A stretch of 64,000 nucleotides of DNA from Alphaproteobacteria bacterium (GCA_017935485.1 JAGBHO010000021.1:2479-66478), one strand, 5' to 3'; counted from the first letter of the stretch, positions 1,604-59,273 are shown. Numbers and translations: made by a program. The notes: generated by a model from the letters alone, not told the origin.

Positions 1604-2842
1604 ATGAGCAGTAGTTGGTTTAGCAAACAAAATATTAGAAAAACAATTATGAAGACATTACAAGGGGCGGTGATACTGGCCGCACCGTATTTTATCCGGA
1701 GTTATTTTGAAAAAAGTGAACAACAGGACCGGCAACAGGTTAAAAAAGAAATCCGGACGGATCATAAAACTGCTCAGACAAAAGAAACCGGCAATACAAA
1801 AGTGTTAAATAAGGCGGATTGGGATTTTGGAACCAAAACTTTGTCCAAGATTTCAGAATTGGTTTCTGAGGTTAAGAGCGAGAAAAAATCCGGTAAGCAA
1901 ACCATGGTTTTTTCTCGGCAAAAAACGACTGCTTCCCAGGCAAGATTAATGGATAAGATTGTGGCAAAGATCAGAACAAAGCCGAACAAAAAGGCCGATA
2001 ACCGCCGTTATGAAACGCAAAAAATTTCTTTGTCGTCCACGCTTAACAAATATGCTTCTAAAAACGGTCAGAGATTGTGTCAGATTGAAAATAAAATCGT
2101 GGCAATGATTGCCCTTATGGAAAATTATGAAGCTTATCCTTATATGAGTGGCGGTGCGGCAACAATCGGCTACGGTTCCTGCTACAAACCGAACGGAATG
2201 CCCGTTACGATGCACGATGCTCCGATTGACAAGACAACGGCGCGTTTGTATACGCAGGCTCATTTGCGCAAAGACGTTTTTCCGGCAATTGAGAAATATG
2301 TGCATAAAGACTTGGATGATGGTCAGCTGATGGCTGTCAGCGCCTTTATCTATGCTGTCGGCAGCGCCAATTTTGCAGGCCTGGGGTATGATGATCATGG
2401 CAGAAAGCGCCAACCCAGCGAGTTTTTGAAAGCGGTTAACAGCGGTAAGAGCGATTTTGAATGCGCGCGTAAGCTGAGTGGCTGGAAAACTGCCGGCGGC
2501 GGCATTTTGCACGAAGGGCTGCTTAAGCGGCGCTGGCTGGAAATGGCCTTGTATTGTCATCGTCTGGAACCTCAGGAACTTTTGGATATGACGCCGGGCG
2601 GGCATTTTAATCTGGCCGTACGCGACTTATATAAACACGGCCGTGCCGACAAAGACGGTTATTATACGCCGATGATGGACGATGCCACAATGCGGCGCGT
2701 GATGCAAAAATGCAAGACAGGGCGCCGCCGGCTGAAAGATATTATTGACGAGAAAACTTTGCAGAATTTGAAATCCGAACAGGTTTGGGCCCTGACTGAT
2801 TTTGCACAAAGATATGCGGCATTGAGAACTGCAGGTGCTTAA
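1604..2842 (+). CDS. Membrane-anchored GH24 (phage-type) lysozyme-like protein
   Basis: N-terminal hydrophobic anchor. The central segment LMENYEAYPYMSGGAATIGYGS ... LMAVSAFIYAVGSANF ... GLLKRRWLEMALY resembles the GH24 muramidase signature (E..AY.D..G..TIGYG). SD GAGG lies upstream. Confidence 0.7.
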   Translation: MSSSWFSKQNIRKTIMKTLQGAVILAAPYFIRSYFEKSEQQDRQQVKKEIRTDHKTAQTKETGNTKVLNKADWDFGTKTLSKISELVSEVKSEKKSGKQTMVFSRQKTTASQARLMDKIVAKIRTKPNKKADNRRYETQKISLSSTLNKYASKNGQRLCQIENKIVAMIALMENYEAYPYMSGGAATIGYGSCYKPNGMPVTMHDAPIDKTTARLYTQAHLRKDVFPAIEKYVHKDLDDGQLMAVSAFIYAVGSANFAGLGYDDHGRKRQPSEFLKAVNSGKSDFECARKLSGWKTAGGGILHEGLLKRRWLEMALYCHRLEPQELLDMTPGGHFNLAVRDLYKHGRADKDGYYTPMMDDATMRRVMQKCKTGRRRLKDIIDEKTLQNLKSEQVWALTDFAQRYAALRTAGA

Positions 2843-49006: not shown

Positions 49007-49717
49007 ATGGAAAATACAGAACATGCAAAGATGCCTCTTATCGGGGACGAAGCGCCGTCTTTTACGGCGGCAACAACAAAGGGCGAAATCAATTTTCCGG
49101 ATGATTACAGCGGAAAATGGGTGATTTTGTTTTCTCATCCGGCTGATTTTACGCCGGTTTGTACCAGCGAGCTGATGTCTTTTGCGGCAATGGCCGATGA
49201 ATTTGAGGCTTTAAATGCCAAGCTTGTCGGGGTTTCGGTTGACAGTATCAGTTCTCATCTGGCGTGGCTGAAGACCATGGAAGACAAGATTGAGTTTAAC
49301 GGCATTAAATCGCCGAAGATGGATTTTCCGGTCGTTGCCGACGTCAGTATGGATGTGGCTAAACGATACGGCATGATTCAGCCGGGAGCCAGCGATACCA
49401 AAACCGTCCGTTCGGTCTTTTTTATTGATCCGCAGGGAAAAATTCGGGCGATTATTTATTATCCTTTGTCAAACGGGCGGAATTTTCAGGAGATTAAACG
49501 GATTTTGACGGCAATGCAGGTCAGCGACGCTTTTGGCGTAGCAACGCCTGCGGATTGGCAGCCCGGAGACAAGGTCGTGTTGTCGGCACCGTCCAATATG
49601 GAAGACCTGAAACATCGCAACGAGGAACTGCCGGAAGGTGCCGTTTGCGAAGACTGGTTTTTTTGTTTGCAGGATTTGGATGATAAAAAGATAGAAAAGA
49701 AAATTTACGGCAGATGA
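49007..49717 (+). CDS. Peroxiredoxin (AhpC/TSA family, Prx6-like)
   Basis: WVILFSHPADFTPVCTSE active-site motif. Confidence 0.92.
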   Translation: MENTEHAKMPLIGDEAPSFTAATTKGEINFPDDYSGKWVILFSHPADFTPVCTSELMSFAAMADEFEALNAKLVGVSVDSISSHLAWLKTMEDKIEFNGIKSPKMDFPVVADVSMDVAKRYGMIQPGASDTKTVRSVFFIDPQGKIRAIIYYPLSNGRNFQEIKRILTAMQVSDAFGVATPADWQPGDKVVLSAPSNMEDLKHRNEELPEGAVCEDWFFCLQDLDDKKIEKKIYGR

Positions 49718-49719
49718 TT

Positions 49720-50973
49720 TCAGTGCACGTTGACCAGTGACTGCCATGAAGTGGTGTATGCCGGGGAATGAAAATTGCTGCGGACAAATTTTTGCGGCGC
49801 CAATGCCTGAGCGGCAAAGAAAACCGTACGGGCACCGAGTTTGGCGTTTAGTTTGTCGAGTGTCTGCATGAGTTTTTGCTCTTCCGGCGGCAGGGCGGAT
49901 TTTTCAAACAAAGAAGTTTGGAGGGCATCGGCGCTTTCTATTGCCAGCAAGGTTATGCCAGCGGATTTATAGGTTTCCTGCGGCGAGAATATTTGCTTCA
50001 GCCCGTATTTCATGGCGGCAATAAAACGGCCGGTGTGGACGCAGGGACCGCCGAGCGAGACAAGGTATGAGCCGCCGCTGCTTCCGTTTTGATTCCTGAA
50101 GCGGTTTGTTTTCAGAAAAACGGCAATTTCTCCGGCGGCGGCATTTTGGGCGCGCAGCCGGCGGCAGGCGGTATCGGTGAAGCCGGCAATAATGGCTTCG
50201 AGCTGTTCAAAATTTGAGATTTCGTGTTCAAAGCTGCGGGAGACGGTTATGCTTTGCGCCGTTTCTTCCCGTTCAATGTCCAAACAGGGGCGGCCGTTCA
50301 GTTCCATGACGGTTTTTTCCAGCGGAATGCCAAAGTTCCGGCGAATCATTTTCAGCGGTGAATTTTGGAGTTCAAGCGCGGTGAATATGCCCAGAAAGTT
50401 GAGTTTCGGCGTCAGCCGGCGGCCGATGCCCCAGATGTTTTCGACCTCAAAATTTTTCAGCGTTTGGCGGATCCTTTGCGGGTCGGTCAAAATTTCCACT
50501 TTGTCAAAGGCTTTGCTTTTGGCCAGAGAAGACGCGACTTTGCACAGGGTTTTGGTCGGAGCGATGCCGATGGAAACCGGAATGCCGACTTCTTTTAGAA
50601 TTTGGTGCCGGATGCAGACCGCCAGCTGGAAATGATCTATACCGGTGTCGGGAAGGCGGGCAAAGGCTTCATCGACGGAATAAACCTGTATGGCGCCGCA
50701 GTTTTGGCGAATCAGGCTCATAACGCGGCGGGAGATGTCCGAATAAAGCTCGAAATTTGAAGACAGCGCGACACCGCCGGCGCCCCGGAGCATTTTTTCG
50801 ATTTTGAAATAAGGCGCTCCCATGGCTATCGGCAGGGCTTTGGCCTCGTAAGAGCGCGAAACGACACAGCCGTCGTTGCTGGACAGGACAACTACCGGAC
50901 GTTTTTTCAAATCCGGACGGAATATCCGTTCGCAGGAAACAAAAAAATTGTCGCAGTCAAACAGGAAAAACAT
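49720..50973 (-). CDS. umuC: Y-family translesion DNA polymerase (UmuC-like)
   Basis: MFFLFDCDNFFVSCERIF...VVLSSNDG...SVDEAF motifs. Directly downstream of umuD. Confidence 0.9.
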   Translation of the reverse strand: MFFLFDCDNFFVSCERIFRPDLKKRPVVVLSSNDGCVVSRSYEAKALPIAMGAPYFKIEKMLRGAGGVALSSNFELYSDISRRVMSLIRQNCGAIQVYSVDEAFARLPDTGIDHFQLAVCIRHQILKEVGIPVSIGIAPTKTLCKVASSLAKSKAFDKVEILTDPQRIRQTLKNFEVENIWGIGRRLTPKLNFLGIFTALELQNSPLKMIRRNFGIPLEKTVMELNGRPCLDIEREETAQSITVSRSFEHEISNFEQLEAIIAGFTDTACRRLRAQNAAAGEIAVFLKTNRFRNQNGSSGGSYLVSLGGPCVHTGRFIAAMKYGLKQIFSPQETYKSAGITLLAIESADALQTSLFEKSALPPEEQKLMQTLDKLNAKLGARTVFFAAQALAPQKFVRSNFHSPAYTTSWQSLVNVH

Positions 50974-50974
50974 A

Positions 50975-51349
50975 TCAATACTTTCTGAAACTTGCGATTA
51001 TGACACCCCAGACCGAAAAGTTGTCGCGGGCGGAAACCATGCGGGCAGTGCCGTTGCCGTCGGAGCACAATAAGCTTGTCCGGCCTGAAGACAGCTGCAG
51101 GCGGCGGGCAAGCAATTCTCCGTTAAGTTCAGCCACGACCAAGCTGCCTGATACCGGTTGCAGGGTGCGGTCAACAATCAGCGTATCGCCGCGGAGAATG
51201 CCGTCCTGTCTGAGAGAATCGCCATCCAGGCGCAGAAAATAGGTAGCCGCGGGATGAGGAACCAAATGGCGGTTCAGATCCAGCGGGGAGGAATAATCAT
51301 TTTCTGAAAAATCAAAAGCGTCAGCATGTGAGGAATGAAAAGCAGGCAT
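50975..51349 (-). CDS. umuD: LexA-like S24 peptidase UmuD
   Basis: ...ATYFLRLDGDSL...GDTLIVDR...NGELLARRL... S24 fold pattern. ATG at 51349. Confidence 0.85.
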   Translation of the reverse strand: MPAFHSSHADAFDFSENDYSSPLDLNRHLVPHPAATYFLRLDGDSLRQDGILRGDTLIVDRTLQPVSGSLVVAELNGELLARRLQLSSGRTSLLCSDGNGTARMVSARDNFSVWGVIIASFRKY

Positions 51350-51366
51350 GGCATTCTCGTTATTGT

Positions 51367-51381
51367 GTTCTTGTTTTGTTC
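51367..51381 (-). promoter_or_regulatory. Alphaproteobacterial-type SOS (LexA) box GTTC-N7-GTTC
   Basis: GTTCTTGTTTTGTTC on the plus strand (GAAC-N7-GAAC on the coding strand), 18 nt upstream of the umuD ATG. Confidence 0.75.
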
Positions 51382-51472
51382 TTATAATAATTACGGATAA
51401 ATTTAAATGCAATAGAAATTTTGATTAAGCTGTAATAAAATCCGGTTAAAAGATTTTTAGCAAGGAGGAAAA

Positions 51473-52468
51473 ATGAAAAAGATTGTACCGCAGGTGTTGA
51501 AAGCAGGGGATGAAGTCCGGATTGTGGCGCCGGCCAGAGGACTGAGGCTGATTGGCCGGGACAGCCGCGAGATTGCCAAAGCACGGTTTGAAGAAATGGG
51601 GCTGAAGGTGACTTTCGGCAGGAACACCACGGATGAAAACTGGGATATGTTCGGTTCCACAGACGTTGAAAAACGGGCGGAGGATTTGAACGAGGCTTTC
51701 GGGGACAAAAACGTGAAAGCCGTATTTACGGTGATTGGCGGAAGCAATTCGAATCAGCTGCTGCCGTATCTGGATTATGAGCTTATTCGGCAAAATCCAA
51801 AAATTTTCTGCGGCTTTTCCGACATTACGGCGTTGTTGAACGGCATTTATGCCAAGACGGGACTGGTGACCTTTTCCGGTCCGCATTTCAGCTCGCTGGG
51901 AATGAAAAAGGGGGCGGAATATACGCTGGAAAACTTGAAAAAAATGATTTTGGGCGATCAGGAAAACGAGATTAAGCCGTCAGATGCCTGGAGTGACGAT
52001 TTGTGGTTTATCAATCAGGAGGACCGTACCTTTATTAAGAACGAGGGCTGGCAGGTGATTAATGCCGGAAAGGCCGAAGGAACGATCGTCGGCGGCAATC
52101 TCGGAACTTTTGATTTGCTGCTCGGGTCTTCTTACCGGCCGGCATTTGAGAAAAACACCGTTTTGTTTGTTGAAGAGTGTTTTACCAGCGAAGCGACGGA
52201 TGCCGGAAGTTTTGAGAGAAATTTGCAGGCGCTGATTTACCAGCCTGATTTTGAAAATGTGAGCGGAATTGTCATCGGGCGTTTTCAAAAGGCTTCCAAT
52301 GTGACAAAAGAAAAGCTCGAATATATTATTAAAAGCAAAAAAGCGCTGGACCGGATGCCGGTTATTGCCAATGTTGATTTTGGGCATACGACGCCGCTTT
52401 TGACATTGCCGATCGGCGGGGAATGCAGTCTGGATGCGGAGTCCGGGCTATTGACGGTAAAAGCTTGA
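51473..52468 (+). CDS. ldcA: LD-carboxypeptidase (peptidase S66, LdcA/MccF-like)
   Basis: ...FCGFSDITALL... (nucleophile Ser) and ...NVDFGHTTP... (catalytic His). SD AAGGAGG. Confidence 0.88.
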   Translation: MKKIVPQVLKAGDEVRIVAPARGLRLIGRDSREIAKARFEEMGLKVTFGRNTTDENWDMFGSTDVEKRAEDLNEAFGDKNVKAVFTVIGGSNSNQLLPYLDYELIRQNPKIFCGFSDITALLNGIYAKTGLVTFSGPHFSSLGMKKGAEYTLENLKKMILGDQENEIKPSDAWSDDLWFINQEDRTFIKNEGWQVINAGKAEGTIVGGNLGTFDLLLGSSYRPAFEKNTVLFVEECFTSEATDAGSFERNLQALIYQPDFENVSGIVIGRFQKASNVTKEKLEYIIKSKKALDRMPVIANVDFGHTTPLLTLPIGGECSLDAESGLLTVKA

Positions 52469-52474
52469 AGCAAA

Positions 52475-52508
52475 GATCCCCGAGCGTGAGGTTCGGGGAT
52501 CTTTTTTT
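52475..52508 (+). terminator. Rho-independent terminator after ldcA
   Basis: Stem GATCCCCGA / TCGGGGATC followed by T7. Confidence 0.9.
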
Positions 52509-52656
52509 GTGAAAAAACGCCGATTCGATTTCTAAAAGCCGCGGAAAACCATATAAAATAAAAGATATTTTAACTAAATCCGGTTATAATTTTATTTAAT
52601 CAGAAAAATTTTTGACCGAAAACGTATTTTTTTAGATTAATTTGACAAAAAAGTTG

Positions 52657-52685
52657 TTGAAATATTCTGAAAAATGCGTTATTAT
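52657..52685 (+). promoter_or_regulatory. Sigma70-like promoter TTGAAA-17-TATTAT
   Basis: Embedded in TTGACAAAAAAGTTGTTGAAA. A near-identical motif precedes the paralog at 55743. Confidence 0.5.
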
Positions 52686-52719
52686 CGCGTCAAATAGAAT
52701 TTTGTTAGGAGTTTTTAAG

Positions 52720-55593
52720 ATGGCTATTGATGCTCAAAATGCAATTCGGGCGATTAATGATGGAAAATATGAAGTGTTTTCCAATGACGATTTGATTAAT
52801 TTGGCCAAAATTTTGCCGGCTGCCGGAAAAGAAGGCGCTGAAGCTTTTGCCAAATTGAAGGATTTTGTCGGAACAAATTTGATGGCGCCGTTTGCCGAAG
52901 GTATTTATCAACTCAATCCCAAAGACATGGATGTTTTTGAGGAACTGGTTAAAATTTACGGCAAGGGCGCGGACGGCAAGGTTATTAAAGGCATGACCAG
53001 CGGCAAAACCGTGCAGGAGGCTTTTGATGTTTATAAAAAGCTTAATGACGTTAACGTTGATGCCAAGACGATTGAAAATAATGCCGCCAAGCTTGAGGCG
53101 TTTGAGCAAAAGCATGATATTGCGGACAGCAAATTTGAGTCAAACGGCCGGAAGCTTCTTGACAGAATGGATATTGACAAAGATACAAAGGCAGACGTTT
53201 TGGAAGCCGTCAGACTGAATGCTTATACGGACAGTTTGGTTGACGGAAAACTTGACGAGGCCAAATATGTCGAGAATTTGAAGAGCAATATCGAGCTGGC
53301 CGTTTACAGCATGCTGACCGGTACTGCCATTTCAAAAGCCGGTGCGGAAGCCAACAAGTCTTTGGACATGTCCATTAAGGCGACTTTGGAACAGGCTGTT
53401 GCTGTTACGGATAAAGAAAACAGCATGCTTAAAGTTAACGGCGATGCCGTTATGGGTTATCTGGCGACAACGCTGGACCGAACAGAAAGTATTAAAGACC
53501 GCATTAAGAATAAGCTTGGCAATATTCCGGTATTGGCCAAACTGAACAAGAAAATTTCGCAGTTGGATGATAAATTCTCCAAAAAATACGGCAAGCGTTA
53601 TGAGGTTGCCAAGACGGCGGTTAAGGTTGTTTCCAATATCGGCGCAGGTGGTCTGATGTTGTGCGCTGCAGGTGGTTTGGGTCCGGTCGGTCTGGCGGCA
53701 TACGGTGTTTATGCTTCTTATAACGGTATGAAACCGATGGTTCAGTCTTGGAAAAACAGCCGGAAAGAGTATAAGTCATTCGGCGCTTTTCTGAAAGATA
53801 ACAAGCTGAATGCCCTGACCGCAGTTTCCGGCGTTCTGGCGTTGGGTGTGGCCGGTTATAATGCCGGAAATGCCGCTTTGCAGGTTGCCGGAGGACAATT
53901 GAATTCGGCAACGGTAAGTCCTCTGCTCGGATATGCCAGCAAAACGCGCGCAACGCTTGCTTATGGTACGGTTGCCCTGAAAAATGCCGTTGATATCAAA
54001 GATGCATACAATAAGGGTGAAGGCACAGGGAAAGCTTGGGCAAAAGCCGGGTTGACGGCGCTGGCGTTTGTTGTGAACTATCATCTGGCCGGTGCATTCC
54101 AAGCAGATTCTAATGTTTCCGAGAAAAGCGGTCTGACTTTGCCGGACGGCAGAGATTTGAATGAGGCAAAAGTCGATTCTGCCGCTCAAAACAGCGTGGC
54201 TGAGGATTCCACACAAGTTTCCGACGGTGCGGATACAACGACAACAGCCGGTACGGAACAAGATCCGTGCGAGGAGATTGAAAATGCTTTGCATGGCAGT
54301 CAGCAGCAGAGTGCAGAACAGAATGTCGATGACGGCGACTGCAACGGCAAGATTGAGGCTCAGGCCAGAGACCATACCCTGCATACAGAGTTTTGGGACA
54401 ACCGTAACCGTCACTTCCTCGGTGATGATTTGACCAATGCTTTGTACGGCCTGTTTGAAGGCGACAAGCCGGTTTTGAATTTGAATGATTTTGAAGGCAT
54501 TGATAACAAAGAAGAATTTGTTTATAAATATGCCATTATGAAGGCTAATAACATTCCCGAGCAGCAGATTTTGGTCGATATGATTGAGAAAGCCTGCGGC
54601 GGCCAGTTGACGCAGAATGATTATATTGATATTGCCCGCGGCATGAACTCGTATGACAATCACGGTAATCCGCTGTGCTGGGAAAATACGCAGAATACCG
54701 GCGGTACCAGACTGGCTGACGATTTTGTCCGCTGCGATCCGGAACCGACCAAGCCGGAACCGGCTGATGTTGTTCCCGTAACTCCGGTTAATCCGGAGCC
54801 TGTTGAACCTGAGCCGACAGAGCCCGTTCAACCCGTTGAACCCGTACAGGAGGCAGAACCTGCCAAGATTTACAAGGGTAAGATTGTTGAACATGTTACG
54901 CTTGACAATGTTCCGCAGGATAAGATTAAAGGTTATGATTATGACTTTTATGATGCGCCTATTCCCGAGAAAGAAGCCGCACAGGGTTATGATTATGACG
55001 TTGACGGCAACAAAGGCGAGCCCGCTCCGACACTTGAGGCCGATGCCGTAGCCGGAAAAATTGCGATGGCGAACGGCGGCAAGGTTGAATATACCTTTTA
55101 TAACGGTGCAGCACAAATTCAGTATGAAATGCCGGAAGACAAATATGCCGATGAAGTGGCTGCCCATTTGGAAGGTTTTACCGACAAGCCGGAAACAATG
55201 TCCCGCCGTTATGCGGCTTACAGCGAGGTTTATTATGACCTGCACAGCCGTCTGGCCGAAGGCGAAACCATTAAAGGCGCCGAGGAATGGATGGATTGGA
55301 TGGATAAGCACTTGGCCAAACGCGGTTTGTTTATTGATGACAAAGGTTATATTGCCATTAATCAGAATGTTGACCGTGAGCTGTTGCTGGAAGCTTATCG
55401 TAAAGATCCGGACGGTCTGATGACGGACAAAGAAATGCGTCAGCTTGAAAAAGAGACCGAAAAAGCCGAGAAACAGGCTGCCAAGGAAGCTGCCAAAGCG
55501 GAAAAAGAAGCCGCCAAAGAAGCAGCAAAGGCTGAGAAAGAAGCTGCAAAAATGGCTAAAATGAAAGCTAAAAGCAACAGTTGGGATTATTAA
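52720..55593 (+). CDS. Giant hypothetical membrane protein A (957 aa), paralog of the next gene
   Basis: ATG at 52720 after AGGAG. No signal peptide. Gly/Ala-rich hydrophobic core at about 53620-54100. P/E/V-rich linker at about 54738-54860. C-terminal KEAAKAE repeats. Confidence 0.85.
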   Translation: MAIDAQNAIRAINDGKYEVFSNDDLINLAKILPAAGKEGAEAFAKLKDFVGTNLMAPFAEGIYQLNPKDMDVFEELVKIYGKGADGKVIKGMTSGKTVQEAFDVYKKLNDVNVDAKTIENNAAKLEAFEQKHDIADSKFESNGRKLLDRMDIDKDTKADVLEAVRLNAYTDSLVDGKLDEAKYVENLKSNIELAVYSMLTGTAISKAGAEANKSLDMSIKATLEQAVAVTDKENSMLKVNGDAVMGYLATTLDRTESIKDRIKNKLGNIPVLAKLNKKISQLDDKFSKKYGKRYEVAKTAVKVVSNIGAGGLMLCAAGGLGPVGLAAYGVYASYNGMKPMVQSWKNSRKEYKSFGAFLKDNKLNALTAVSGVLALGVAGYNAGNAALQVAGGQLNSATVSPLLGYASKTRATLAYGTVALKNAVDIKDAYNKGEGTGKAWAKAGLTALAFVVNYHLAGAFQADSNVSEKSGLTLPDGRDLNEAKVDSAAQNSVAEDSTQVSDGADTTTTAGTEQDPCEEIENALHGSQQQSAEQNVDDGDCNGKIEAQARDHTLHTEFWDNRNRHFLGDDLTNALYGLFEGDKPVLNLNDFEGIDNKEEFVYKYAIMKANNIPEQQILVDMIEKACGGQLTQNDYIDIARGMNSYDNHGNPLCWENTQNTGGTRLADDFVRCDPEPTKPEPADVVPVTPVNPEPVEPEPTEPVQPVEPVQEAEPAKIYKGKIVEHVTLDNVPQDKIKGYDYDFYDAPIPEKEAAQGYDYDVDGNKGEPAPTLEADAVAGKIAMANGGKVEYTFYNGAAQIQYEMPEDKYADEVAAHLEGFTDKPETMSRRYAAYSEVYYDLHSRLAEGETIKGAEEWMDWMDKHLAKRGLFIDDKGYIAINQNVDRELLLEAYRKDPDGLMTDKEMRQLEKETEKAEKQAAKEAAKAEKEAAKEAAKAEKEAAKMAKMKAKSNSWDY

Positions 55594-55620
55594 TCTTCTT
55601 AAAAAAACTCCTGACAAAAG

Positions 55621-55660
55621 AGAAAGAGCTGCAGAGAAATCTGCGGCTCTTTTTCTTTTG
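55621..55660 (+). terminator. Rho-independent terminator between the paralogs
   Basis: Stem AAGAGCTGCAG / CTGCGGCTCTT (one G-U pair) followed by a T run. Confidence 0.75.
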
Positions 55661-55755
55661 GCATCAGGCTCTTAATGAATAATTTAAGTTTTATCGCTAT
55701 GATTGAGATAAATGTTACATTACTGTTAATATCGTCTTTTTGTTGACAAAAATTG

Positions 55756-55784
55756 TTGTACAAAATAAATAATTTTGGTACAAT
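55756..55784 (+). promoter_or_regulatory. Promoter TTGTAC-17-TACAAT with an extended -10 TG
   Basis: TGgTACAAT at 55776-55784. The upstream TTGACAAAAATTGTTG motif is shared with the gene A promoter region. Confidence 0.55.
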
Positions 55785-55820
55785 AAAGTATGTTGAATTA
55801 AATATTCCGGAGTAAGAACC

Positions 55821-58800
55821 ATGGCTGATGAATCTAATGTATTGACCCAGGAACAGAGGGATTTTTATGAGAATGAAACCGGCAAGCCTTTGCCGGAAGG
55901 AGCAACCTGGGATTCTCTGGATGGGGAACAAAAAGCCGTTCTCAGCGATGTTTATGCTCCCAAAAGCGCGGAAGCCGAGGAATATGCCGGCAAGTTCAAA
56001 GAGCCGGAGCAGGAAGCGGCCGTGATTGAGCAAAAAGAGCCGATGAAGCTTGAGGATGCGATTAATGCCGCGGATGGCAAAGAATTGTATAATCTGAATC
56101 CGAACGATTTAGCCGAGATGAACAATGTGCTGCGGACAGCGGCAGCAGAGGGCAATGAAGCTGCGGTGCTCGGTTACGGAAAAGTCCGGCTGGCCATGGA
56201 AGAAAAAATGCAGGCCTATGCCAACGGCGAAATTGAAACGCCGATAGAATGGGCCGGCGGGATGCAGGCCATGCTGCGGGCGGCGAAAGAACGCCTGCCG
56301 GAAAAAGAGCCTTATCAGGAAGAACCGATTACCGGCATGCATACGGTGACGGCGCAGAATATTTCTAATGACAAAGATAAGAATTTGGATGACCTCAGCC
56401 TGCATGACCTGGCGGCGTTGAAAGTCGAAATGGACAAGAATCCGGAAGGTTTTGACAAGCAGCGCGTTGACGAGGCCGTCGGCCATCGTTTGAATAAGCT
56501 TGCGTCAATGGGGAAAAATGATTTTATTGCGAAGGAAGATTTGGCGGCGGCGCAGGTTTTGCTTGACGCCATTCCGATGTCAAACCGTCGGGAAAGCGCC
56601 GGCAAAGCTTTTGAGGTTTTTACCAAAGTAGAGGGCAAACTGTATGACTCCCGCAAGGTTGTCAACGGAACTTTTGACGAGCCGCGGATTGCCGAGCTGG
56701 CCGAAGCCTGTGAGGGAAAGCTGAAAGAGTTTACCGAGGCTTATGACAAAGAGCACGGCTTGTCGATGATGACTTCGGAAGATGCCGAGCGGGTTTCGGA
56801 GAATATTGCCGCCATGAGCGAAATGGGCAAAGACGCTCTTGACAAGGCGGAATATAAAGAAGAACCGATCAAGCCGATGTCGAAAGACGAGGCTGAGAAA
56901 GCAATGGCCGAGTTGCGGCAGGGCAAAGATTTTGACATGAAAACGCTGGCGTCTTTGTCGGCTTCCAATGCTTTTGGCACAATGGGGCCGGATGCTGAGG
57001 CGCTGGAAAAGGCGATTGCCGCTAAACTGACCAAGGTCGGCAAGGAAGTTCCGGCCGATGAGCTGGGCAGCATGGATTTTCTGCTGGAGAAGGCTTCGCA
57101 CCTGCCGGAGTCAATGTTTCCGGCCAAGAAGTATGAGAAAGCCAAGGGTATTTTAGACAAGAACCGGAAAGAGGCTCAGAAGAATCCGAAGCCGAAGCAT
57201 CCGGAAATGGCTGATGCCATGGCGCTGTTTGACAATCTGGAGATTACGGACGGCGTTAAGATGTTCAGCAAGGCCAAGAGCAAGGATAGTGACGAATTAA
57301 AGGCGCAGTTGCTGGAGAGTATCCGTCTGCAGACGATGGAAAGCATGGCCGGTACCAAACCGGGGCCGATTGATCCGGCAGAATTTAATAAGGAATTTGC
57401 CGCGAATATCGTGGCGGAGGTCGGCAGGCTGGCCGGTGTCGAGAGCGTGATTGCCGGCGGCAGCAAGGCGATTGAAGATTATGCCAAAGGTCACAAGATT
57501 CAGGTTGGAAAAGGGGCGCTGTTAGGGTATTTGGCGGCACAGAGCGACGCGCGCGAGGGTTTTGCCGCCCGTCTGGAGAGCAAGGTCGGAAAGGGTAATG
57601 CCGGTGTTGCAAAACTGCGGGAACAAGGTAAGAGTCTGGATGACAAGACAGCTAAAAATGCAGCACCCAAGCAGTATGCGATGCTTAAATCTCTGGCCAA
57701 GACTGCAGCGTGGTCGGGAGCGTATTATGCTGCCGGAGCAGTTTGCGGTCCGGCCGGTATAGCGGTTGTGGCAACGGCGTCTTTGGCGAATCAGGCCTTG
57801 AAGCTGCGCAAGGAATATAAGAAGAAAAAAGAAGAAATGGCCAAAAAGGGCAAGAAACTCAAGCTTTGGTCTTTCTTAAAAAACAATAAAATGGCTTTGG
57901 CCGGCGCGGCAATGACGGCTCTCGGTATTGGAGCGGCCGGTATTGAAGCAGCCGAGTTGGTTCCGGAAGTGGCCAGAGCGATGACAAATGCCAAAGCAAC
58001 GTCAGGAATTGCGCTGGGTATCGGTTCAACCATCAAAGCCTTCAGGGAAGTGCGAAAAAACGGCGGCAGTATGTGGAAAGCGATGGGCGCGGCCAGTGTG
58101 GCCGGTGCCGGTACGGCCTGGGCCGTGATTTCCGGAGCCACATCATCATTTGATTCTCCGGCGATTGAAGGGGAAGGAACCATTGCCGCTCATATTAATT
58201 GGGGAGAACATAGTTCTTATGGACCGGAACATCCGACAATGTCGGAGATTGAAACAGCAAATTCAGTGACTCCGGCGATGGTTGATGAAAATAACAATGG
58301 TATTTCAGATTATATTGAGCGGCCGGCCGAACAACAGACGCCGCCGATGTTGGATAAGGATAATGATGGCATTTCCGATTATATAGACCGTGACGGTGGC
58401 GAGGGCTGGGCGAATGAGCCGGAAAAACCGGCGGTTGAGCAGGAAGCTCCGGTACAGGAGACCCCGTTGCAGGAGCCGGTTGTTCAGCAGGAATCCGAGG
58501 AACGTCCGGATTGGGCTTCCCAGCCGCTGGAAGCCGGTGCGATTGCCGGTCTTGAAACCGAGCAGCCGGATATTGCCGGCGTTAATGAGCAAATGCAGGC
58601 TCAGGCAGAGGCAAACAAAATATACGGCGTGCAGGATCCGGTCAGCGGCAAGACGTTAGAGTTTTCTCTGGGTGACAATGGGGAAATCCAGACTCATAAT
58701 GCCGAGGAAATCGGGTTGGTGGGAAGTGAGCAGCTTCATGGCGCCGTTGCCGAAAGGATTAGTCAGGAAGCCGGTCATTTCAGCGACAGGGAACTGGCTT

Positions 58801-59225
58801 TTCTGGAGAAGAATCTGTCCGGCGAGCAATACAGCGACGTTATGTTGGCCGATGCGCAGATAAGAGCGGAGCAGGATACACAGTTGTTGGCACAGGAGGC
58901 TGAAAAGACTTTCGGAAATCCGCAAGATGTTCATACGGCCGAACAGTCTATGGCGGACAATCAATCGGCGGCAGCAGGGAAACCAGATGTCGAGAAGCTG
59001 AATGAGGAGCTGCAGTCGATGGTTCATGGCGATAAAGCAGCCGAACAGCAGCCGCAGGAACTTTCAAAGGCCGAAAAGCTGGAAGCGCTCAGACAGGGTA
59101 AAAGCGTGGAAGAAGCCACGGCGGCAAAATCTGCTTCCAAAGAGCCGATAATGGCACAGAACATTAACAGGGTGCAAACGCCCATTAACAGTGTAGACCC
59201 GCGCGGCGGCGGATACACAGCCTAA
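55821..59225 (+). CDS. Giant hypothetical membrane protein B (1134 aa), paralog of gene A
   Basis: SD GGAG. Alignable with A by eye (GALLGYLAAQSDAREGF vs DAVMGYLATTLDRTESI; FLKNNKMALAGAAMTALGIGAAG vs FLKDNKLNALTAVSGVLALGVAG). Hydrophobic core at about 57700-58140. Two DxDxDGISDYI repeats. Confidence 0.85.
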   Translation: MADESNVLTQEQRDFYENETGKPLPEGATWDSLDGEQKAVLSDVYAPKSAEAEEYAGKFKEPEQEAAVIEQKEPMKLEDAINAADGKELYNLNPNDLAEMNNVLRTAAAEGNEAAVLGYGKVRLAMEEKMQAYANGEIETPIEWAGGMQAMLRAAKERLPEKEPYQEEPITGMHTVTAQNISNDKDKNLDDLSLHDLAALKVEMDKNPEGFDKQRVDEAVGHRLNKLASMGKNDFIAKEDLAAAQVLLDAIPMSNRRESAGKAFEVFTKVEGKLYDSRKVVNGTFDEPRIAELAEACEGKLKEFTEAYDKEHGLSMMTSEDAERVSENIAAMSEMGKDALDKAEYKEEPIKPMSKDEAEKAMAELRQGKDFDMKTLASLSASNAFGTMGPDAEALEKAIAAKLTKVGKEVPADELGSMDFLLEKASHLPESMFPAKKYEKAKGILDKNRKEAQKNPKPKHPEMADAMALFDNLEITDGVKMFSKAKSKDSDELKAQLLESIRLQTMESMAGTKPGPIDPAEFNKEFAANIVAEVGRLAGVESVIAGGSKAIEDYAKGHKIQVGKGALLGYLAAQSDAREGFAARLESKVGKGNAGVAKLREQGKSLDDKTAKNAAPKQYAMLKSLAKTAAWSGAYYAAGAVCGPAGIAVVATASLANQALKLRKEYKKKKEEMAKKGKKLKLWSFLKNNKMALAGAAMTALGIGAAGIEAAELVPEVARAMTNAKATSGIALGIGSTIKAFREVRKNGGSMWKAMGAASVAGAGTAWAVISGATSSFDSPAIEGEGTIAAHINWGEHSSYGPEHPTMSEIETANSVTPAMVDENNNGISDYIERPAEQQTPPMLDKDNDGISDYIDRDGGEGWANEPEKPAVEQEAPVQETPLQEPVVQQESEERPDWASQPLEAGAIAGLETEQPDIAGVNEQMQAQAEANKIYGVQDPVSGKTLEFSLGDNGEIQTHNAEEIGLVGSEQLHGAVAERISQEAGHFSDRELAFLEKNLSGEQYSDVMLADAQIRAEQDTQLLAQEAEKTFGNPQDVHTAEQSMADNQSAAAGKPDVEKLNEELQSMVHGDKAAEQQPQELSKAEKLEALRQGKSVEEATAAKSASKEPIMAQNINRVQTPINSVDPRGGGYTA

Positions 59226-59236
59226 AAGGAAGACAT

Positions 59237-59269
59237 AAAAAAACCGGAGTTTTAATCTCCGGTTTTTTT
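59237..59269. terminator. Bidirectional terminator between gene B and deoA
   Basis: AAAAAAACCGGAG-loop-CTCCGGTTTTTTT. Confidence 0.9.
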
Positions 59270-59273
59270 CCGG

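What the first reader, a model, noticed from the sequence alone, without database searches (positions are those of the whole stretch)
52657..59225. Tandem pair of giant paralogous membrane proteins (957 and 1134 aa) with no recognisable domains
Two adjacent plus-strand genes each have their own promoter-like region and terminator. Both promoter regions share a TTGACAAAAA(A)(G)TTGTTG motif. The proteins align by eye in the N-terminal region (DGKYEVFSNDDLINLAKIL vs DGKELYNLNPNDLAEMNNVL). They also align around a central Gly/Ala-rich hydrophobic core (DAVMGYLATTLDRTESIKDRIKNKLGN vs GALLGYLAAQSDAREGFAARLESKVGK; FLKDNKLNALTAVSGVLALGVAG vs FLKNNKMALAGAAMTALGIGAAG). Neither has a signal peptide. Each has 3-4 predicted hydrophobic helices clustered mid-protein (A at about 53620-54100, B at about 57700-58140). 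Long hydrophilic, acidic, helical regions flank the core, and proline- or acid-rich linkers follow it. A large soluble domain plus a clustered hydrophobic hairpin region recalls secreted membrane-inserting effectors and translocators, or large envelope scaffolds. That comparison is only an analogy. I could not assign any catalytic motif.
Basis: partly seen in the sequence, partly recalled or inferred. Interest (0 to 1): 0.75.

Follow-up and report, generated by a model that had tools for sequence, protein, structure and literature searches.

The report
Novel paired envelope-anchor proteins, unknown function
Two neighbouring large genes of an uncultured gut alphaproteobacterium belong to a protein family that matches nothing known. 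They most likely sit in the inner membrane with one long arm in the cytoplasm and another in the periplasm, but their function is still unknown.

Summary
Gene A (52720-55593, 957 aa) and gene B (55821-59225, 1134 aa) are real genes under purifying selection. Each has its own promoter and its own strong terminator. They are paralogous only in a central core of about 300 aa (BLASTP 1e-10; hhalign 96%). Pfam, NCBIfam, PHROGs, PADLOC, PDB sequence and profile searches, and Foldseek against PDB and BFVD give no significant match.

A profile of the core finds 148 cluster representatives. Every member that carries a source name is a 'hypothetical protein' from an uncultured Alphaproteobacteria genome. 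The family is modular and exists in fused and split forms. In split forms the N-module is a separate protein without a signal peptide. In one subfamily the C-terminal module also exists as a neighbouring stand-alone gene with a signal peptide. Loop charges follow the positive-inside rule.

The best reading (about 0.5) is an inner-membrane anchor with the N-terminus inside and the C-terminus outside. The helical N-arm would be cytoplasmic and the acidic, Pro-rich, Ca-loop or Cys-bearing C-arm periplasmic, forming an envelope scaffold. The main rival (about 0.2) is a secreted membrane-inserting protein. It is favoured by weak hydrophobicity, scarce cysteine and a conserved basic C-terminal tail. 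Function is unproven.

The parts
52472..52510 (+). Intrinsic terminator of the upstream LD-carboxypeptidase gene. It marks the 5' boundary of the A transcription unit.
   Evidence: 14-bp stem plus U-tract, dG -24.9, z -5.3.
52642..52651 (+). TTGACAAAAA element, about 9 nt upstream of the -35 box of A and 78 nt before the ATG.
   Evidence: The same element lies at -69 to -86 in A and B orthologues and in distant family members (L007, L009, L011, L014, L015).
52657..52685 (+). Promoter of A: TTGAAA, 17-nt spacer, TATTAT.
   Evidence: 10 of 12 matches. Conserved in L001-L006 and L014.
52720..55593 (+). Gene A, 957 aa. RBS AGGAG at 52707-52711.
   Evidence: dN/dS 0.11-0.23. CAI 0.708, against 0.717 for the ribosomal/EF reference set.
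53167..54129 (+). Family core domain of A (aa 150-470). It consists of amphipathic helices followed by hydrophobic segments H1-H4 (aa 303-460, nt 53626-54099).
54337..54735 (+). Cys/His-bearing module of A (aa 540-672). C541, C626, C653 and C672 are invariant within the A family, as is C517 just upstream of the module.
   Evidence: The module recurs after the core in 16 other family representatives.
54736..54864 (+). Pro/Glu-rich spacer (PEPxxPEP..., aa 673-715).
   Evidence: AF2 pLDDT is below 50 here.
54865..55419 (+). C-terminal alpha/beta module of A (aa 716-900).
   Evidence: AF2 pLDDT is about 80 over aa 777-900. The module is shared with 8 other family representatives.
55420..55590 (+). 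Lys/Ala/Glu helical repeat (33-bp tandem repeat at 55461-55551) and basic tail ending ...KSNSWDY.
55615..55660 (+). Intrinsic terminator of A.
   Evidence: 21-bp stem, dG -33.7 kcal/mol, z -8.5, followed by a U-tract.
55714..55729 (-). CtrA-box-like direct repeat (TTAACAGTAATGTAAC on the minus strand; consensus TTAA-N7-TTAAC). It lies 107 nt before the B start codon.
   Evidence: It is conserved in all B orthologues and sits at -110 to -115 before distant family members in L007 and L011. Ten of 16 exact sites in 375 kb lie there.
55740..55784 (+). B promoter region. It holds a 13-bp tandem unit, TTGTTGACAAAAA then TTGTTGTACAAAA, whose second copy supplies the -35 box (TTGTAC, 55756-55761). A 17-nt spacer ending in TGG precedes the -10 box TACAAT (55779-55784).
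55821..59225 (+). Gene B, 1134 aa. RBS GGAG at 55809-55812.
   Evidence: dN/dS 0.06-0.12.
57273..58145 (+). Family core domain of B (aa 485-775). Hydrophobic segments H1-H4 are at aa 629-773 (nt 57705-58139), with the conserved Gly-Pro turn at G643-P644 (invariant in the B family and in an alignment of 34 distant members).
58284..58388 (+). Two DxDxDGxxDxxD-type putative Ca-binding loops (aa 822-833 and 845-856) in the acidic linker after the core.
   Evidence: D845, D849, D853 and D856 are invariant. The motif recurs right after the core in at least 12 family representatives.
58608..58925 (+). Small C-terminal alpha/beta module of B (aa 930-1035).
   Evidence: AF2 pLDDT is 73-84 for most of it. 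It is conserved in B orthologues.
59058..59222 (+). Conserved C-terminal tail of B (LSKAEKLEALRQGKSVEEA...QNI...DPRGGGYTA).
59237..59270 (.). Hairpin terminator flanked by A- and T-runs, shared with the convergent deoA gene.
   Evidence: dG -16.9, z -3.7.

Best explanation
A and B are two paralogous members of a previously undescribed, modular protein family. So far the family has been found only in uncultured, largely gut-derived Alphaproteobacteria.

The family-defining core is about 300 aa. It consists of a soluble amphipathic helical part followed by four Gly/Ala-rich hydrophobic segments.

Proposed arrangement (inferred, not shown):
- H1, with its conserved Gly-Pro turn, is a re-entrant hairpin entered from the cytoplasmic side.
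- H2 and H3 form a hairpin across the membrane.
- H4 carries the chain out.
- The three strongly basic loops stay on the cytoplasmic face.

The helical N-terminal arm is then cytoplasmic. The acidic C-terminal arm lies in the periplasm. That arm holds Pro/Glu spacers, DxDxDG calcium-type loops in B, a Cys-bearing module in A, small alpha/beta modules and a basic tail.

The two proteins share the anchor but carry different modules at both ends. I therefore infer that they act as envelope-spanning scaffolds or tethers. Each would couple a different cytoplasmic partner to a different periplasmic or outer-envelope partner. A shared promoter element suggests common transcriptional control.

The topology is the supported part. 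The tether function is inference.
For: Real, maintained genes:
- dN/dS is 0.06-0.23.
- The pair and its full synteny are kept in six species.

Cytoplasmic N-arm:
- In four independent loci the family is split into two genes. A 226-246-aa gene matches the region just N-terminal of, and including, the start of the core of long members. It has no signal peptide and no hydrophobic segment (L016, L018, L019, L021).
- A profile of these stand-alone N-modules gives 63 matched stretches in long family members, including two in B (whole-protein E = 1e-4).

Extracytoplasmic C-arm:
- In L010 and L013 the gene next to the large family member is a stand-alone copy of that member's C-terminal module. Identity is 69% (8e-54) and 47% (1e-33).
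- Both stand-alone copies carry an N-terminal signal peptide, one of them with a twin-arginine motif.

Charge pattern over 68 members with a full core:
- pre-H1 +3.7; H1-H2 loop +5.1; H2-H3 loop +0.4; H3-H4 loop +2.6; post-H4 -2.3.
- This fits N-in/C-out with H1 as a hairpin.

Features after H4 typical of periplasmic chains:
- TonB-like PEP spacers.
- DxDxDGxxDxxD loops in B and at least 12 relatives, and a canonical EF-hand loop in short members.
- Cys clusters whose positions vary between lineages.

Genomic setting:
- Contexts are housekeeping genes of diderm, flagellated bacteria. They show no secretion-system, chaperone, immunity or phage genes.
- The TTGACAAAA element at about -78 is shared by A, B and distant members. 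A CtrA-like box lies before B and before two distant members.
Against: - The hydrophobic segments are weak. The best 19-mers score +4.0 to +5.0 on a crude Hessa-scale sum. That equals the weakest helices of SecY or the antiporter, and the best segment of soluble DeoA.
- No segment is hydrophobic enough to look like a strong SRP or signal-anchor sequence. Yet 350-490 acidic residues would have to be exported.
- AF2 gives pLDDT below 50 for most of the hydrophobic segments in both proteins.
- Cys is also depleted in the supposedly cytoplasmic N-part: 1.25 per 1000, against 12 per 1000 in neighbouring genes.
- The signal-peptide evidence comes from a different subfamily's C-module, not from the modules of A or B.
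- The conserved basic C-terminal tail could equally be a secretion signal.
- No partner protein or function has been identified.
Confidence: 0.5

Rival explanations
1. Secreted, membrane-inserting proteins (effectors, translocators or pore-formers). They would be exported in one step through a C-terminal signal, by a type I-like or type IV-like route. The weakly hydrophobic core would insert into a target membrane, as in RTX cytolysins or translocated membrane effectors.
For: - No N-terminal signal peptide in any member; nearly all begin MA....
- Acidic pI of about 4.9, and four-fold Cys depletion that includes the N-part.
- Hydrophobic segments below the usual insertion range.
- A conserved C-terminal tail on otherwise acidic proteins. 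The last 30 aa carry net +1.7, against -1.5 per 30 aa in the rest of the protein. The tail is positive in 101 of 130 members and Arg is enriched 2.1-fold. 57 of 130 members end G-x(0-1)-[RK]-x(0-3). 26 of 130 carry [LIVMA]xx[LIVM]RG about 40 aa from the end, against 1.2% expected.
- Mosaic shuffling of modules, and amino-acid divergence about twice that of most neighbours.
Against: - No ABC/MFP/TolC, VirB/D4, chaperone, acyltransferase or immunity gene in any of the 14 independent contexts examined.
- No RTX repeats or any toxin domain.
- Stand-alone C-modules use Sec/Tat signal peptides, so they function in the periplasm. Stand-alone N-modules have none.
- The positive-inside pattern holds across the family.
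- Purifying selection and stable core-genome synteny.
Confidence: 0.2
2. A cytoplasmic, monotopic or peripheral membrane scaffold. All hydrophobic segments would be re-entrant hairpins or buried bundle helices. Both arms would stay in the cytoplasm, for example as a membrane-shaping or polar landmark protein.
For: - H1 is only about 27 aa long with a conserved Gly-Pro turn (invariant in two alignments), and the other segments are short and weak.
- All loops but one are basic, as expected for binding to lipid head-groups.
- No signal peptide is present.
- A CtrA-like box upstream of B suggests cell-cycle or polarity control.
Against: - Stand-alone C-modules carry signal peptides.
- DxDxDG and EF-hand calcium loops, variable Cys clusters and TonB-like Pro spacers are unusual in the bacterial cytoplasm.
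- The segment after H4 switches to net negative charge.
Confidence: 0.12
3. Domesticated relatives of phage or gene-transfer-agent tail tape-measure proteins.
For: - The top BFVD Foldseek matches for A are tape-measure proteins (best E = 1.8e-3, probability 0.33).
- Tape-measure proteins are also long, helical and carry central Gly/Ala-rich hydrophobic segments (general knowledge).
- CtrA controls gene transfer agents in some Alphaproteobacteria (general knowledge).
Against: - TM-scores are 0.06-0.07 and rmsd is above 30 A, so the match reflects composition and helicity only.
- No PHROG hit.
- No tblastn hit in 50,697 phage records even at E = 1.
- No relative in IMG/VR.
- No phage genes in any context.
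Confidence: 0.03

Closest known systems
TonB / TolA-type inner-membrane-anchored, periplasm-spanning proteins
   Same: In the proposed topology, a membrane anchor is followed by extended Pro/Glu/Lys-rich spacers and small C-terminal globular modules that reach across the periplasm. A even ends in a TolA-like Lys/Ala/Glu helical repeat.
   Different: TonB and TolA have a single strongly hydrophobic N-terminal helix, no large cytoplasmic arm, and work with ExbBD or TolQR. Here the anchor is a 300-aa core with four weak Gly/Ala helices placed mid-protein. No TonB_C or TolA domain and no ExbBD/TolQR neighbour was found.
Alphaproteobacterial polar or envelope landmark proteins such as PodJ (comparison from general knowledge)
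   Same: Large size, helical cytoplasmic N-terminal part, central membrane segment and periplasmic C-terminal part. Cell-cycle-type promoter control is possible, given the CtrA-like box before B.
   Different: PodJ has one ordinary transmembrane helix plus TPR and peptidoglycan-binding domains. None was detected here. No sequence or fold similarity was found. Localisation is untested.
RTX pore-forming cytolysins (HlyA type) and other type I secretion substrates
   Same: About 1000 aa, acidic, nearly Cys-free and without a signal peptide. Ala/Gly/Ser-rich weakly hydrophobic helices are followed by Asp-rich calcium-type motifs and a conserved C-terminal tail.
   Different: No GGxGxD nonapeptide repeats, no RTX N-terminal domain, and no acyltransferase, ABC or MFP genes nearby. 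The family's modules also occur as Sec/Tat-exported stand-alone proteins.
Translocated membrane effectors with hydrophobic hairpins (chlamydial Inc proteins, type III translocators, type IV membrane effectors)
   Same: Hairpin-like hydrophobic segments of reduced hydrophobicity, no signal peptide, lineage-specific and fast-diversifying. The basic C-terminal tail resembles VirB/D4-type signals.
   Different: No secretion system or chaperone gene was seen in any context. Calcium loops and Cys clusters do not fit a host-cytosol destination. The evidence for a periplasmic C-arm argues against translocation.
Phage tail tape-measure proteins
   Same: Long helical proteins with central Gly/Ala-rich hydrophobic segments. 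They are the best, though non-significant, structural matches in BFVD.
   Different: No sequence relationship, no phage context, and core-genome synteny.

Membership tests
RTX / type I-secreted cytolysins | Tandem GGxGxD nonapeptide calcium repeats (Pfam HemolysinCabind) and an RTX hydrophobic N-terminal domain | tested here: not met
   No Pfam hit for A, B or 34 family members. Only 1-2 DxDxDGxxDxxD loops are present.
RTX / type I-secreted cytolysins | Linked acyltransferase, ABC exporter and membrane-fusion protein genes | tested here: not met
   The neighbours are an LD-carboxypeptidase, umuDC and the deo operon. None of these genes appears in the other contexts. Unlinked genes elsewhere in the genome could not be checked.
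TonB / TolA energy transducers | Single N-terminal signal-anchor helix, a TonB_C or TolA C-terminal domain, and ExbBD/TolQR partners | tested here: not met
   The anchor lies mid-protein and has four segments. No Pfam or NCBIfam hit. No partner genes nearby.
Phage tail tape-measure proteins | Match to a tape-measure family and a position in a tail gene cluster | tested here: not met
   PHROGs gave 0 families. tblastn against phage records found no match. IMG/VR held none. Foldseek against BFVD gave a best E of 1.8e-3, probability 0.33 and TM-score 0.06. There is no phage context.
Pore-forming colicins / bacteriocins | Colicin pore domain and an adjacent immunity gene | tested here: not met
   No Pfam or PDB match. 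No small membrane-protein gene lies between or beside A and B.
VirB/D4-type (type IV) secretion substrates | Hydrophilic, net-positive, Arg-rich C-terminal tail | tested here: inconclusive
   The tail is net +1.7, Arg is enriched 2.1-fold, and 101 of 130 tails are positive. This feature is not diagnostic on its own.
VirB/D4-type (type IV) secretion substrates | A type IV secretion system in the same genome, and demonstrated translocation | not testable with these tools
   Only fragments of 10-25 kb of the genomes could be read. None carries virB or virD4 genes.
Canonical Sec/SRP-inserted integral inner-membrane proteins | Hydrophobic helices of about 20 aa within the range of bona fide transmembrane helices | tested here: inconclusive
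   The best 19-mers score +4.0 to +5.0. Helices of SecY and the antiporter range from -5.3 to +5.1, and the best segments of soluble controls score +4.0 to +10.7.
Canonical Sec/SRP-inserted integral inner-membrane proteins | Positive-inside charge distribution | tested here: met
   Net loop charges are +3.7, +5.1, +0.4, +2.6 and -2.3 over 68 members.
CtrA regulon (Alphaproteobacteria) | A TTAA-N7-TTAAC box in the promoter region, bound by CtrA | tested here: inconclusive
   The B promoter carries TTAACAGTAATGTAAC, one mismatch from the consensus. It is conserved in B orthologues and sits at the same distance before two distant family members. Gene A lacks this box at the corresponding position; its upstream region has only one 1-mismatch match, at -161. 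Binding is untested.

The most novel reading that the evidence does not exclude
The conserved core, with its Gly-Pro hairpin and basic loops, together with the conserved C-terminal tail ([LIVMA]xx[LIVM]RG ... GGR[ES]), could define a new kind of export or display system. In it, large acidic proteins without signal peptides would be moved across, or anchored through, the envelope of these gut Alphaproteobacteria. That could happen by self-insertion of weakly hydrophobic hairpins, or through a so far unrecognised secretion route that reads the tail. The 148 or more mosaic family members would then be a repertoire of surface or effector modules for interaction with the host or with neighbouring microbes.
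Probability: 0.15. Interest if true: 0.85.

Novelty: categorically new. Interest (0 to 1): 0.6.

Why it matters
These uncultured Alphaproteobacteria recur in human and animal gut metagenomes, and almost nothing is known of their cell biology.

- The family is large: 148 clusters at 50% identity.
- It is under purifying selection.
- Gene A has ribosomal-protein-like codon usage, which suggests high expression.
- It is built entirely from domains that match no curated family or solved structure.

If the proposed topology is right, the family is a lineage-specific solution for linking cytoplasm and envelope, with interchangeable modules on both sides. If the rival is right, it is a new repertoire of secreted membrane-active proteins in gut commensals. 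In both cases it gives concrete targets: the core domain, the Gly-Pro hairpin, the C-terminal tail and the TTGACAAAA promoter element. These can be used for topology mapping, structure determination and regulon analysis. The 'categorically new' rating refers to sequence and fold. The inferred role, an envelope scaffold, is itself a familiar kind.

Tried and rejected
Searches that found nothing significant:
- Pfam, NCBIfam, PHROGs and PADLOC on A and B. The only entries were noise hits with E of 0.05-0.09.
- Pfam on 34 distant family members gave only low-complexity hits.
- PDB by sequence and by family profiles.
- AlphaFold2 models followed by Foldseek against PDB. The best E was 0.37 for B and 0.95 for A, all generic helical repeats.
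- Foldseek against BFVD returned tape-measure proteins, not significant.
- tblastn of both cores against 50,697 phage and 72,556 plasmid records found no match at E = 1.
- Scans for relatives in IMG/VR and JGI metagenome contigs found none.
- The third word-indexed homologue search, run with the core profile, returned one fragment only.
- Rfam and tRNA scans of the window found none.
- Self-BLAST for internal repeats in A and B found none significant, although a three-fold N-terminal motif in B is visible by eye.
- Literature searches on the suspected lineage gave nothing on cell biology or secretion.

Ideas rejected:
- Prophage or tape-measure origin.
- Colicin-type bacteriocin, because there is no immunity gene.
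- RTX toxin, because there are no repeats and no export genes.
- Horizontal acquisition. GC content and codon usage are native, and the site is syntenic.
- The long antisense ORFs inside A and B, which are artefacts.

Full report
**1. What is there**

The window carries two adjacent plus-strand ORFs.
- ORF A runs 52642-55593. The true start is the ATG at 52720, giving 957 aa. All orthologues begin MAIDA, an AGGAG lies 9 nt upstream, and the -10 box lies downstream of the alternative TTG.
- ORF B runs 55821-59225 and encodes 1134 aa.

Each gene is its own transcription unit.
- A has the promoter TTGAAA-17-TATTAT at 52657-52685. B has TTGTAC-17-(TGG)TACAAT at 55756-55784.
- Three strong hairpin plus U-tract terminators lie before A, between A and B (dG -33.7 kcal/mol, z -8.5) and after B.

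The neighbours are housekeeping genes.
- Upstream lie a Na/H exchanger, a 1-Cys peroxiredoxin, a umuDC-like pair and an LD-carboxypeptidase.
- Downstream lie thymidine phosphorylase, DeoC, purine nucleoside phosphorylase and cytidine deaminase.
- Further upstream are EF-G, EF-Tu, SecY, RpoA and L17, together with RpoN and Lnt.
- GC content and codon usage are native. A has a codon adaptation index of 0.708. The ribosomal/EF reference set scores 0.717 and the other genes in the window 0.54-0.67. B scores 0.592, which is average.

**2. Paralogy and selection**

- BLASTP aligns A155-411 with B492-740 at 26% identity (E = 1e-10).
- A profile-profile comparison of the two orthologue alignments gives 96% probability for A154-449 / B491-764 and nothing else.
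- The central similarity is therefore real.
- The pair, in the same order and full synteny, is present in six species-level genomes. All are titled as uncultured (Alpha)proteobacteria MAGs, and several titles indicate a human gut origin.
- Pairwise dN/dS is 0.11-0.23 for A and 0.06-0.12 for B, within the range of the neighbours. Amino-acid divergence is about twice that of most neighbours.
- Both are genuine, maintained protein-coding genes.
- In a more distant relative (L014) the syntenic site, between the Na/H exchanger and deoA-deoC-PNP-cdd, holds a single A-type gene. The A-type gene is probably the older occupant, and B was added in the lineage of the window.

**3. No known relatives**

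- Pfam, NCBIfam, PHROGs and PADLOC give nothing for A or B.
- PDB sequence and profile searches give nothing.
- AlphaFold2 models have mean pLDDT 60.5 for B and 58.5 for A. The helical N-terminal parts and small C-terminal alpha/beta modules score 70-90. Most of the hydrophobic region and the linkers score below 50.
- Foldseek has no significant match in PDB.
- In BFVD the top matches are tape-measure proteins at E = 1.8e-3, probability 0.33 and TM-score 0.06. This reflects long helices and composition, not fold.
- tblastn of the cores against phage and plasmid collections finds nothing even at E = 1.

**4. A wider family**

- An HMM of the shared core was searched against 1.84 billion cluster representatives. 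It finds 148 proteins at E <= 1e-3 and 85 at E <= 1e-10. Most are 700-2300 aa with the core mid-protein.
- Where sources give names, these are 'hypothetical protein [Alphaproteobacteria bacterium]'. One is labelled Lactobacillaceae, on an 829-kb contig.
- None of 34 diverse members has a meaningful Pfam domain.
- The family is a mosaic. A's Cys-bearing module recurs after the core in 16 other representatives. A's C-terminal module recurs in 8. B's DxDxDG loop recurs right after the core in at least 12. B's N-terminal region recurs in several.
- Members are solitary genes among housekeeping genes of diderm, flagellated bacteria (LpxC, BamD, MlaA/C, AsmA, FlgE). No conserved partner and no secretion, chaperone, immunity or phage genes were seen.

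**5. Anatomy of the core**

Across 68 members with a full core, the consensus runs in this order:
- about 130 aa of amphipathic helices;
- H1 (about 27 aa, Gly/Ala-rich, with a conserved Gly-Pro turn that is invariant in the B family and in an alignment of 34 distant members);
- a 30-aa strongly basic loop;
- H2;
- a neutral 19-aa loop;
- H3;
- a basic loop;
- H4;
- an acidic stretch.

Mean net charges are +3.7, +5.1, +0.4, +2.6 and -2.3. This is a clear positive-inside pattern if H1 is a hairpin entered from the cytoplasmic side, H2 goes out, H3 comes back and H4 goes out. That arrangement gives N-in/C-out.

The caveat is hydrophobicity.
- On a crude Hessa-scale sum the best 19-mers of A and B score +4.0 to +5.0.
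- SecY and the antiporter of the same window range from -5.3 to +5.1.
- The best segments of soluble proteins range from +4.0 to +10.7.
- The segments are therefore marginal, and 'membrane protein' remains an inference.

**6. Fused and split forms give independent evidence on topology**

- Short family members (318-570 aa) start at about core position 85.
- In four independent loci they sit next to a separate 226-246-aa gene. That gene is homologous to the region just N-terminal of, and including, the start of the core of long members (BLASTP 1e-5 to 1e-13).
- A profile of the four stand-alone proteins gives 63 matched stretches in long members, including two in B (whole-protein E = 1e-4).
- These stand-alone N-modules have no signal peptide and no hydrophobic segment.
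- Conversely, in L010 and L013 the gene directly after the large family member is a stand-alone copy of that member's C-terminal module (69% identity, 8e-54; 47% identity, 1e-33).
- Both stand-alone C-modules carry an N-terminal signal peptide. One is ...ALSTAIALTGLASSGTVQA|KE. The other has a twin-arginine motif.
- The N-side module therefore works in the cytoplasm, and at least one C-side module works outside it. This agrees with the charge pattern.
- This evidence comes from another subfamily, so extending it to A and B rests on the shared core.

**7. Features of the C-terminal arms**

- After H4, A has an acidic disordered linker and then a module with four invariant Cys (plus C517 just upstream) and several invariant His. 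Cys positions differ between lineages, and one relative has none. This suggests optional disulfides rather than a metal site.
- A continues with a PEP-rich spacer, a confident alpha/beta module, a Lys/Ala/Glu repeat encoded by a 33-bp tandem repeat, and a basic tail.
- B has two DxDxDGxxDxxD loops with invariant Asp residues, a long acidic Pro/Gln/Glu linker, a small alpha/beta module and a conserved tail.
- Short members carry a canonical EF-hand loop.
- Such elements are typical of extracytoplasmic chains. This is general knowledge, not a test.

**8. Features that keep the secretion hypothesis alive**

- The family is acidic (median pI 4.9) and Cys-poor: 2.8 per 1000 overall and 1.25 per 1000 in the N-part, against 12 per 1000 in neighbouring genes.
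- No member has a signal peptide.
- The hydrophobic helices are weak.
- The extreme C-terminus is conserved although the modules before it vary. The last 30 aa carry net +1.7, against -1.5 per 30 aa in the rest of the protein, and the tail is positive in 101 of 130 members. Arg is enriched 2.1-fold. 57 of 130 members end G-x(0-1)-[RK]-x(0-3), against 3% expected. 26 of 130 carry [LIVMA]xx[LIVM]RG about 40 aa from the end, against 1.2% expected.
- This could be a secretion signal, of the type I kind or the VirB/D4 kind. It could also be a docking peptide for an envelope partner.
- I could not check whole genomes for secretion systems.

**9. Regulation**

- T[TG]GACAAAA occurs 38 times in 438 kb of window plus loci.
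- Twenty-two of these lie 69-86 nt upstream of family start codons on the coding strand. They include A, B, the syntenic L014 gene and distant members in L007, L009, L011 and L015.
- In B the element is the first copy of a 13-bp tandem unit whose second copy provides the -35 box.
- A second element, TTAA-N7-[TG]TAAC, differs by one base from the CtrA consensus (known from the literature on Caulobacter). It lies 106-115 nt upstream of B orthologues and of two distant members. These account for 10 of the 16 exact sites in 375 kb.
It suggests common, possibly cell-cycle-linked, control. Binding is untested.

**10. Verdict**

- The proteins belong to an undescribed, lineage-restricted, modular family.
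- The best-supported model (about 0.5) is an N-in/C-out inner-membrane anchor. It would carry a cytoplasmic helical arm and a periplasm-spanning acidic arm, acting as an envelope scaffold or tether.
- The rivals are a secreted membrane-inserting protein (about 0.2), a monotopic cytoplasmic scaffold (about 0.12) and a tape-measure derivative (about 0.03).
- The function itself is not established by any test here.

Noticed in passing
window 55714-55729 (minus-strand reading); also L001-L006, L007 9886, L011 2815: A CtrA-box-like direct repeat (TTAA-N7-GTAAC) lies 106-115 nt upstream of B orthologues and of two distant family members. Ten of the 16 exact sites in 375 kb are at this position. Gene A lacks this box at the corresponding position.
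   Followed up: partly
window 55740-55765: The B promoter contains a 13-bp tandem duplication (TTGTTGACAAAAA / TTGTTGTACAAAA). The shared TTGACAAAA element and the -35 box are two copies of one unit.
   Followed up: partly
L016 7035-9431; L018 417-2073; L019 8001-10406; L021 1531-3284: In these loci the family is split into two adjacent genes. One encodes a soluble N-module protein of about 230 aa. The other encodes a short protein that carries the hydrophobic part of the core.
   Followed up: yes
L010 16963-17643; L013 11991-12551: Small genes lie next to large family members and encode stand-alone copies of the large protein's C-terminal module. Both carry their own signal peptide, one with a twin-arginine motif.
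   Followed up: yes
window 52720-55593: Gene A has a codon adaptation index of 0.708, equal to the ribosomal/EF reference set (0.717) and the highest of the other genes tested. This suggests high expression. B is average at 0.592.
   Followed up: partly
window 58146-58220 (B aa 776-800): The window's B carries a stretch of about 25 aa right after H4 (SFDSPAIEGEGTIAAHINWGEHSSY) that aligns with gaps in all 11 other B-family sequences in the alignment.
   Followed up: no
window 55461-55551: A 33-bp tandem repeat (2.8 copies) encodes the KEAAKAEKEAA repeat at the C-terminus of A. The repeat is present only in the closest relatives and absent from more distant A orthologues.
   Followed up: partly
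window 49007-52468 compared with L014: The peroxiredoxin, umuDC-like pair and LD-carboxypeptidase that separate the Na/H exchanger from gene A are absent from the syntenic site of a more distant relative. This interval has gained or lost genes, B among them.
   Followed up: partly
window 53776-55617 (-) and other antisense ORFs inside A and B: Long antisense ORFs, up to 613 aa, overlap A and B. Their low-complexity translations, and the conserved sense-strand genes, make them look like artefacts of codon composition.
   Followed up: no
window 1604-2842 (+): A 412-aa chromosomal protein has a phage-lysozyme (GH24-type) domain at aa 176-310 and no phage context in view.
   Followed up: no
window 56000-56975 (B aa 63-105, 161-205, 343-385): By eye, a three-fold motif recurs in the N-terminal arm of B: (K)EP..EEP...M....A......K.....L....LA.L. 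One orthologue (P0009) appears to carry an extra copy. Self-BLAST does not detect it.
   Followed up: partly
protein P0018 (A orthologue from a metagenome assembly): A 771-aa variant of A ends in an out-of-frame, Arg/Met-rich tail. This is probably a frameshift from assembly error, or a pseudogene.
   Followed up: no
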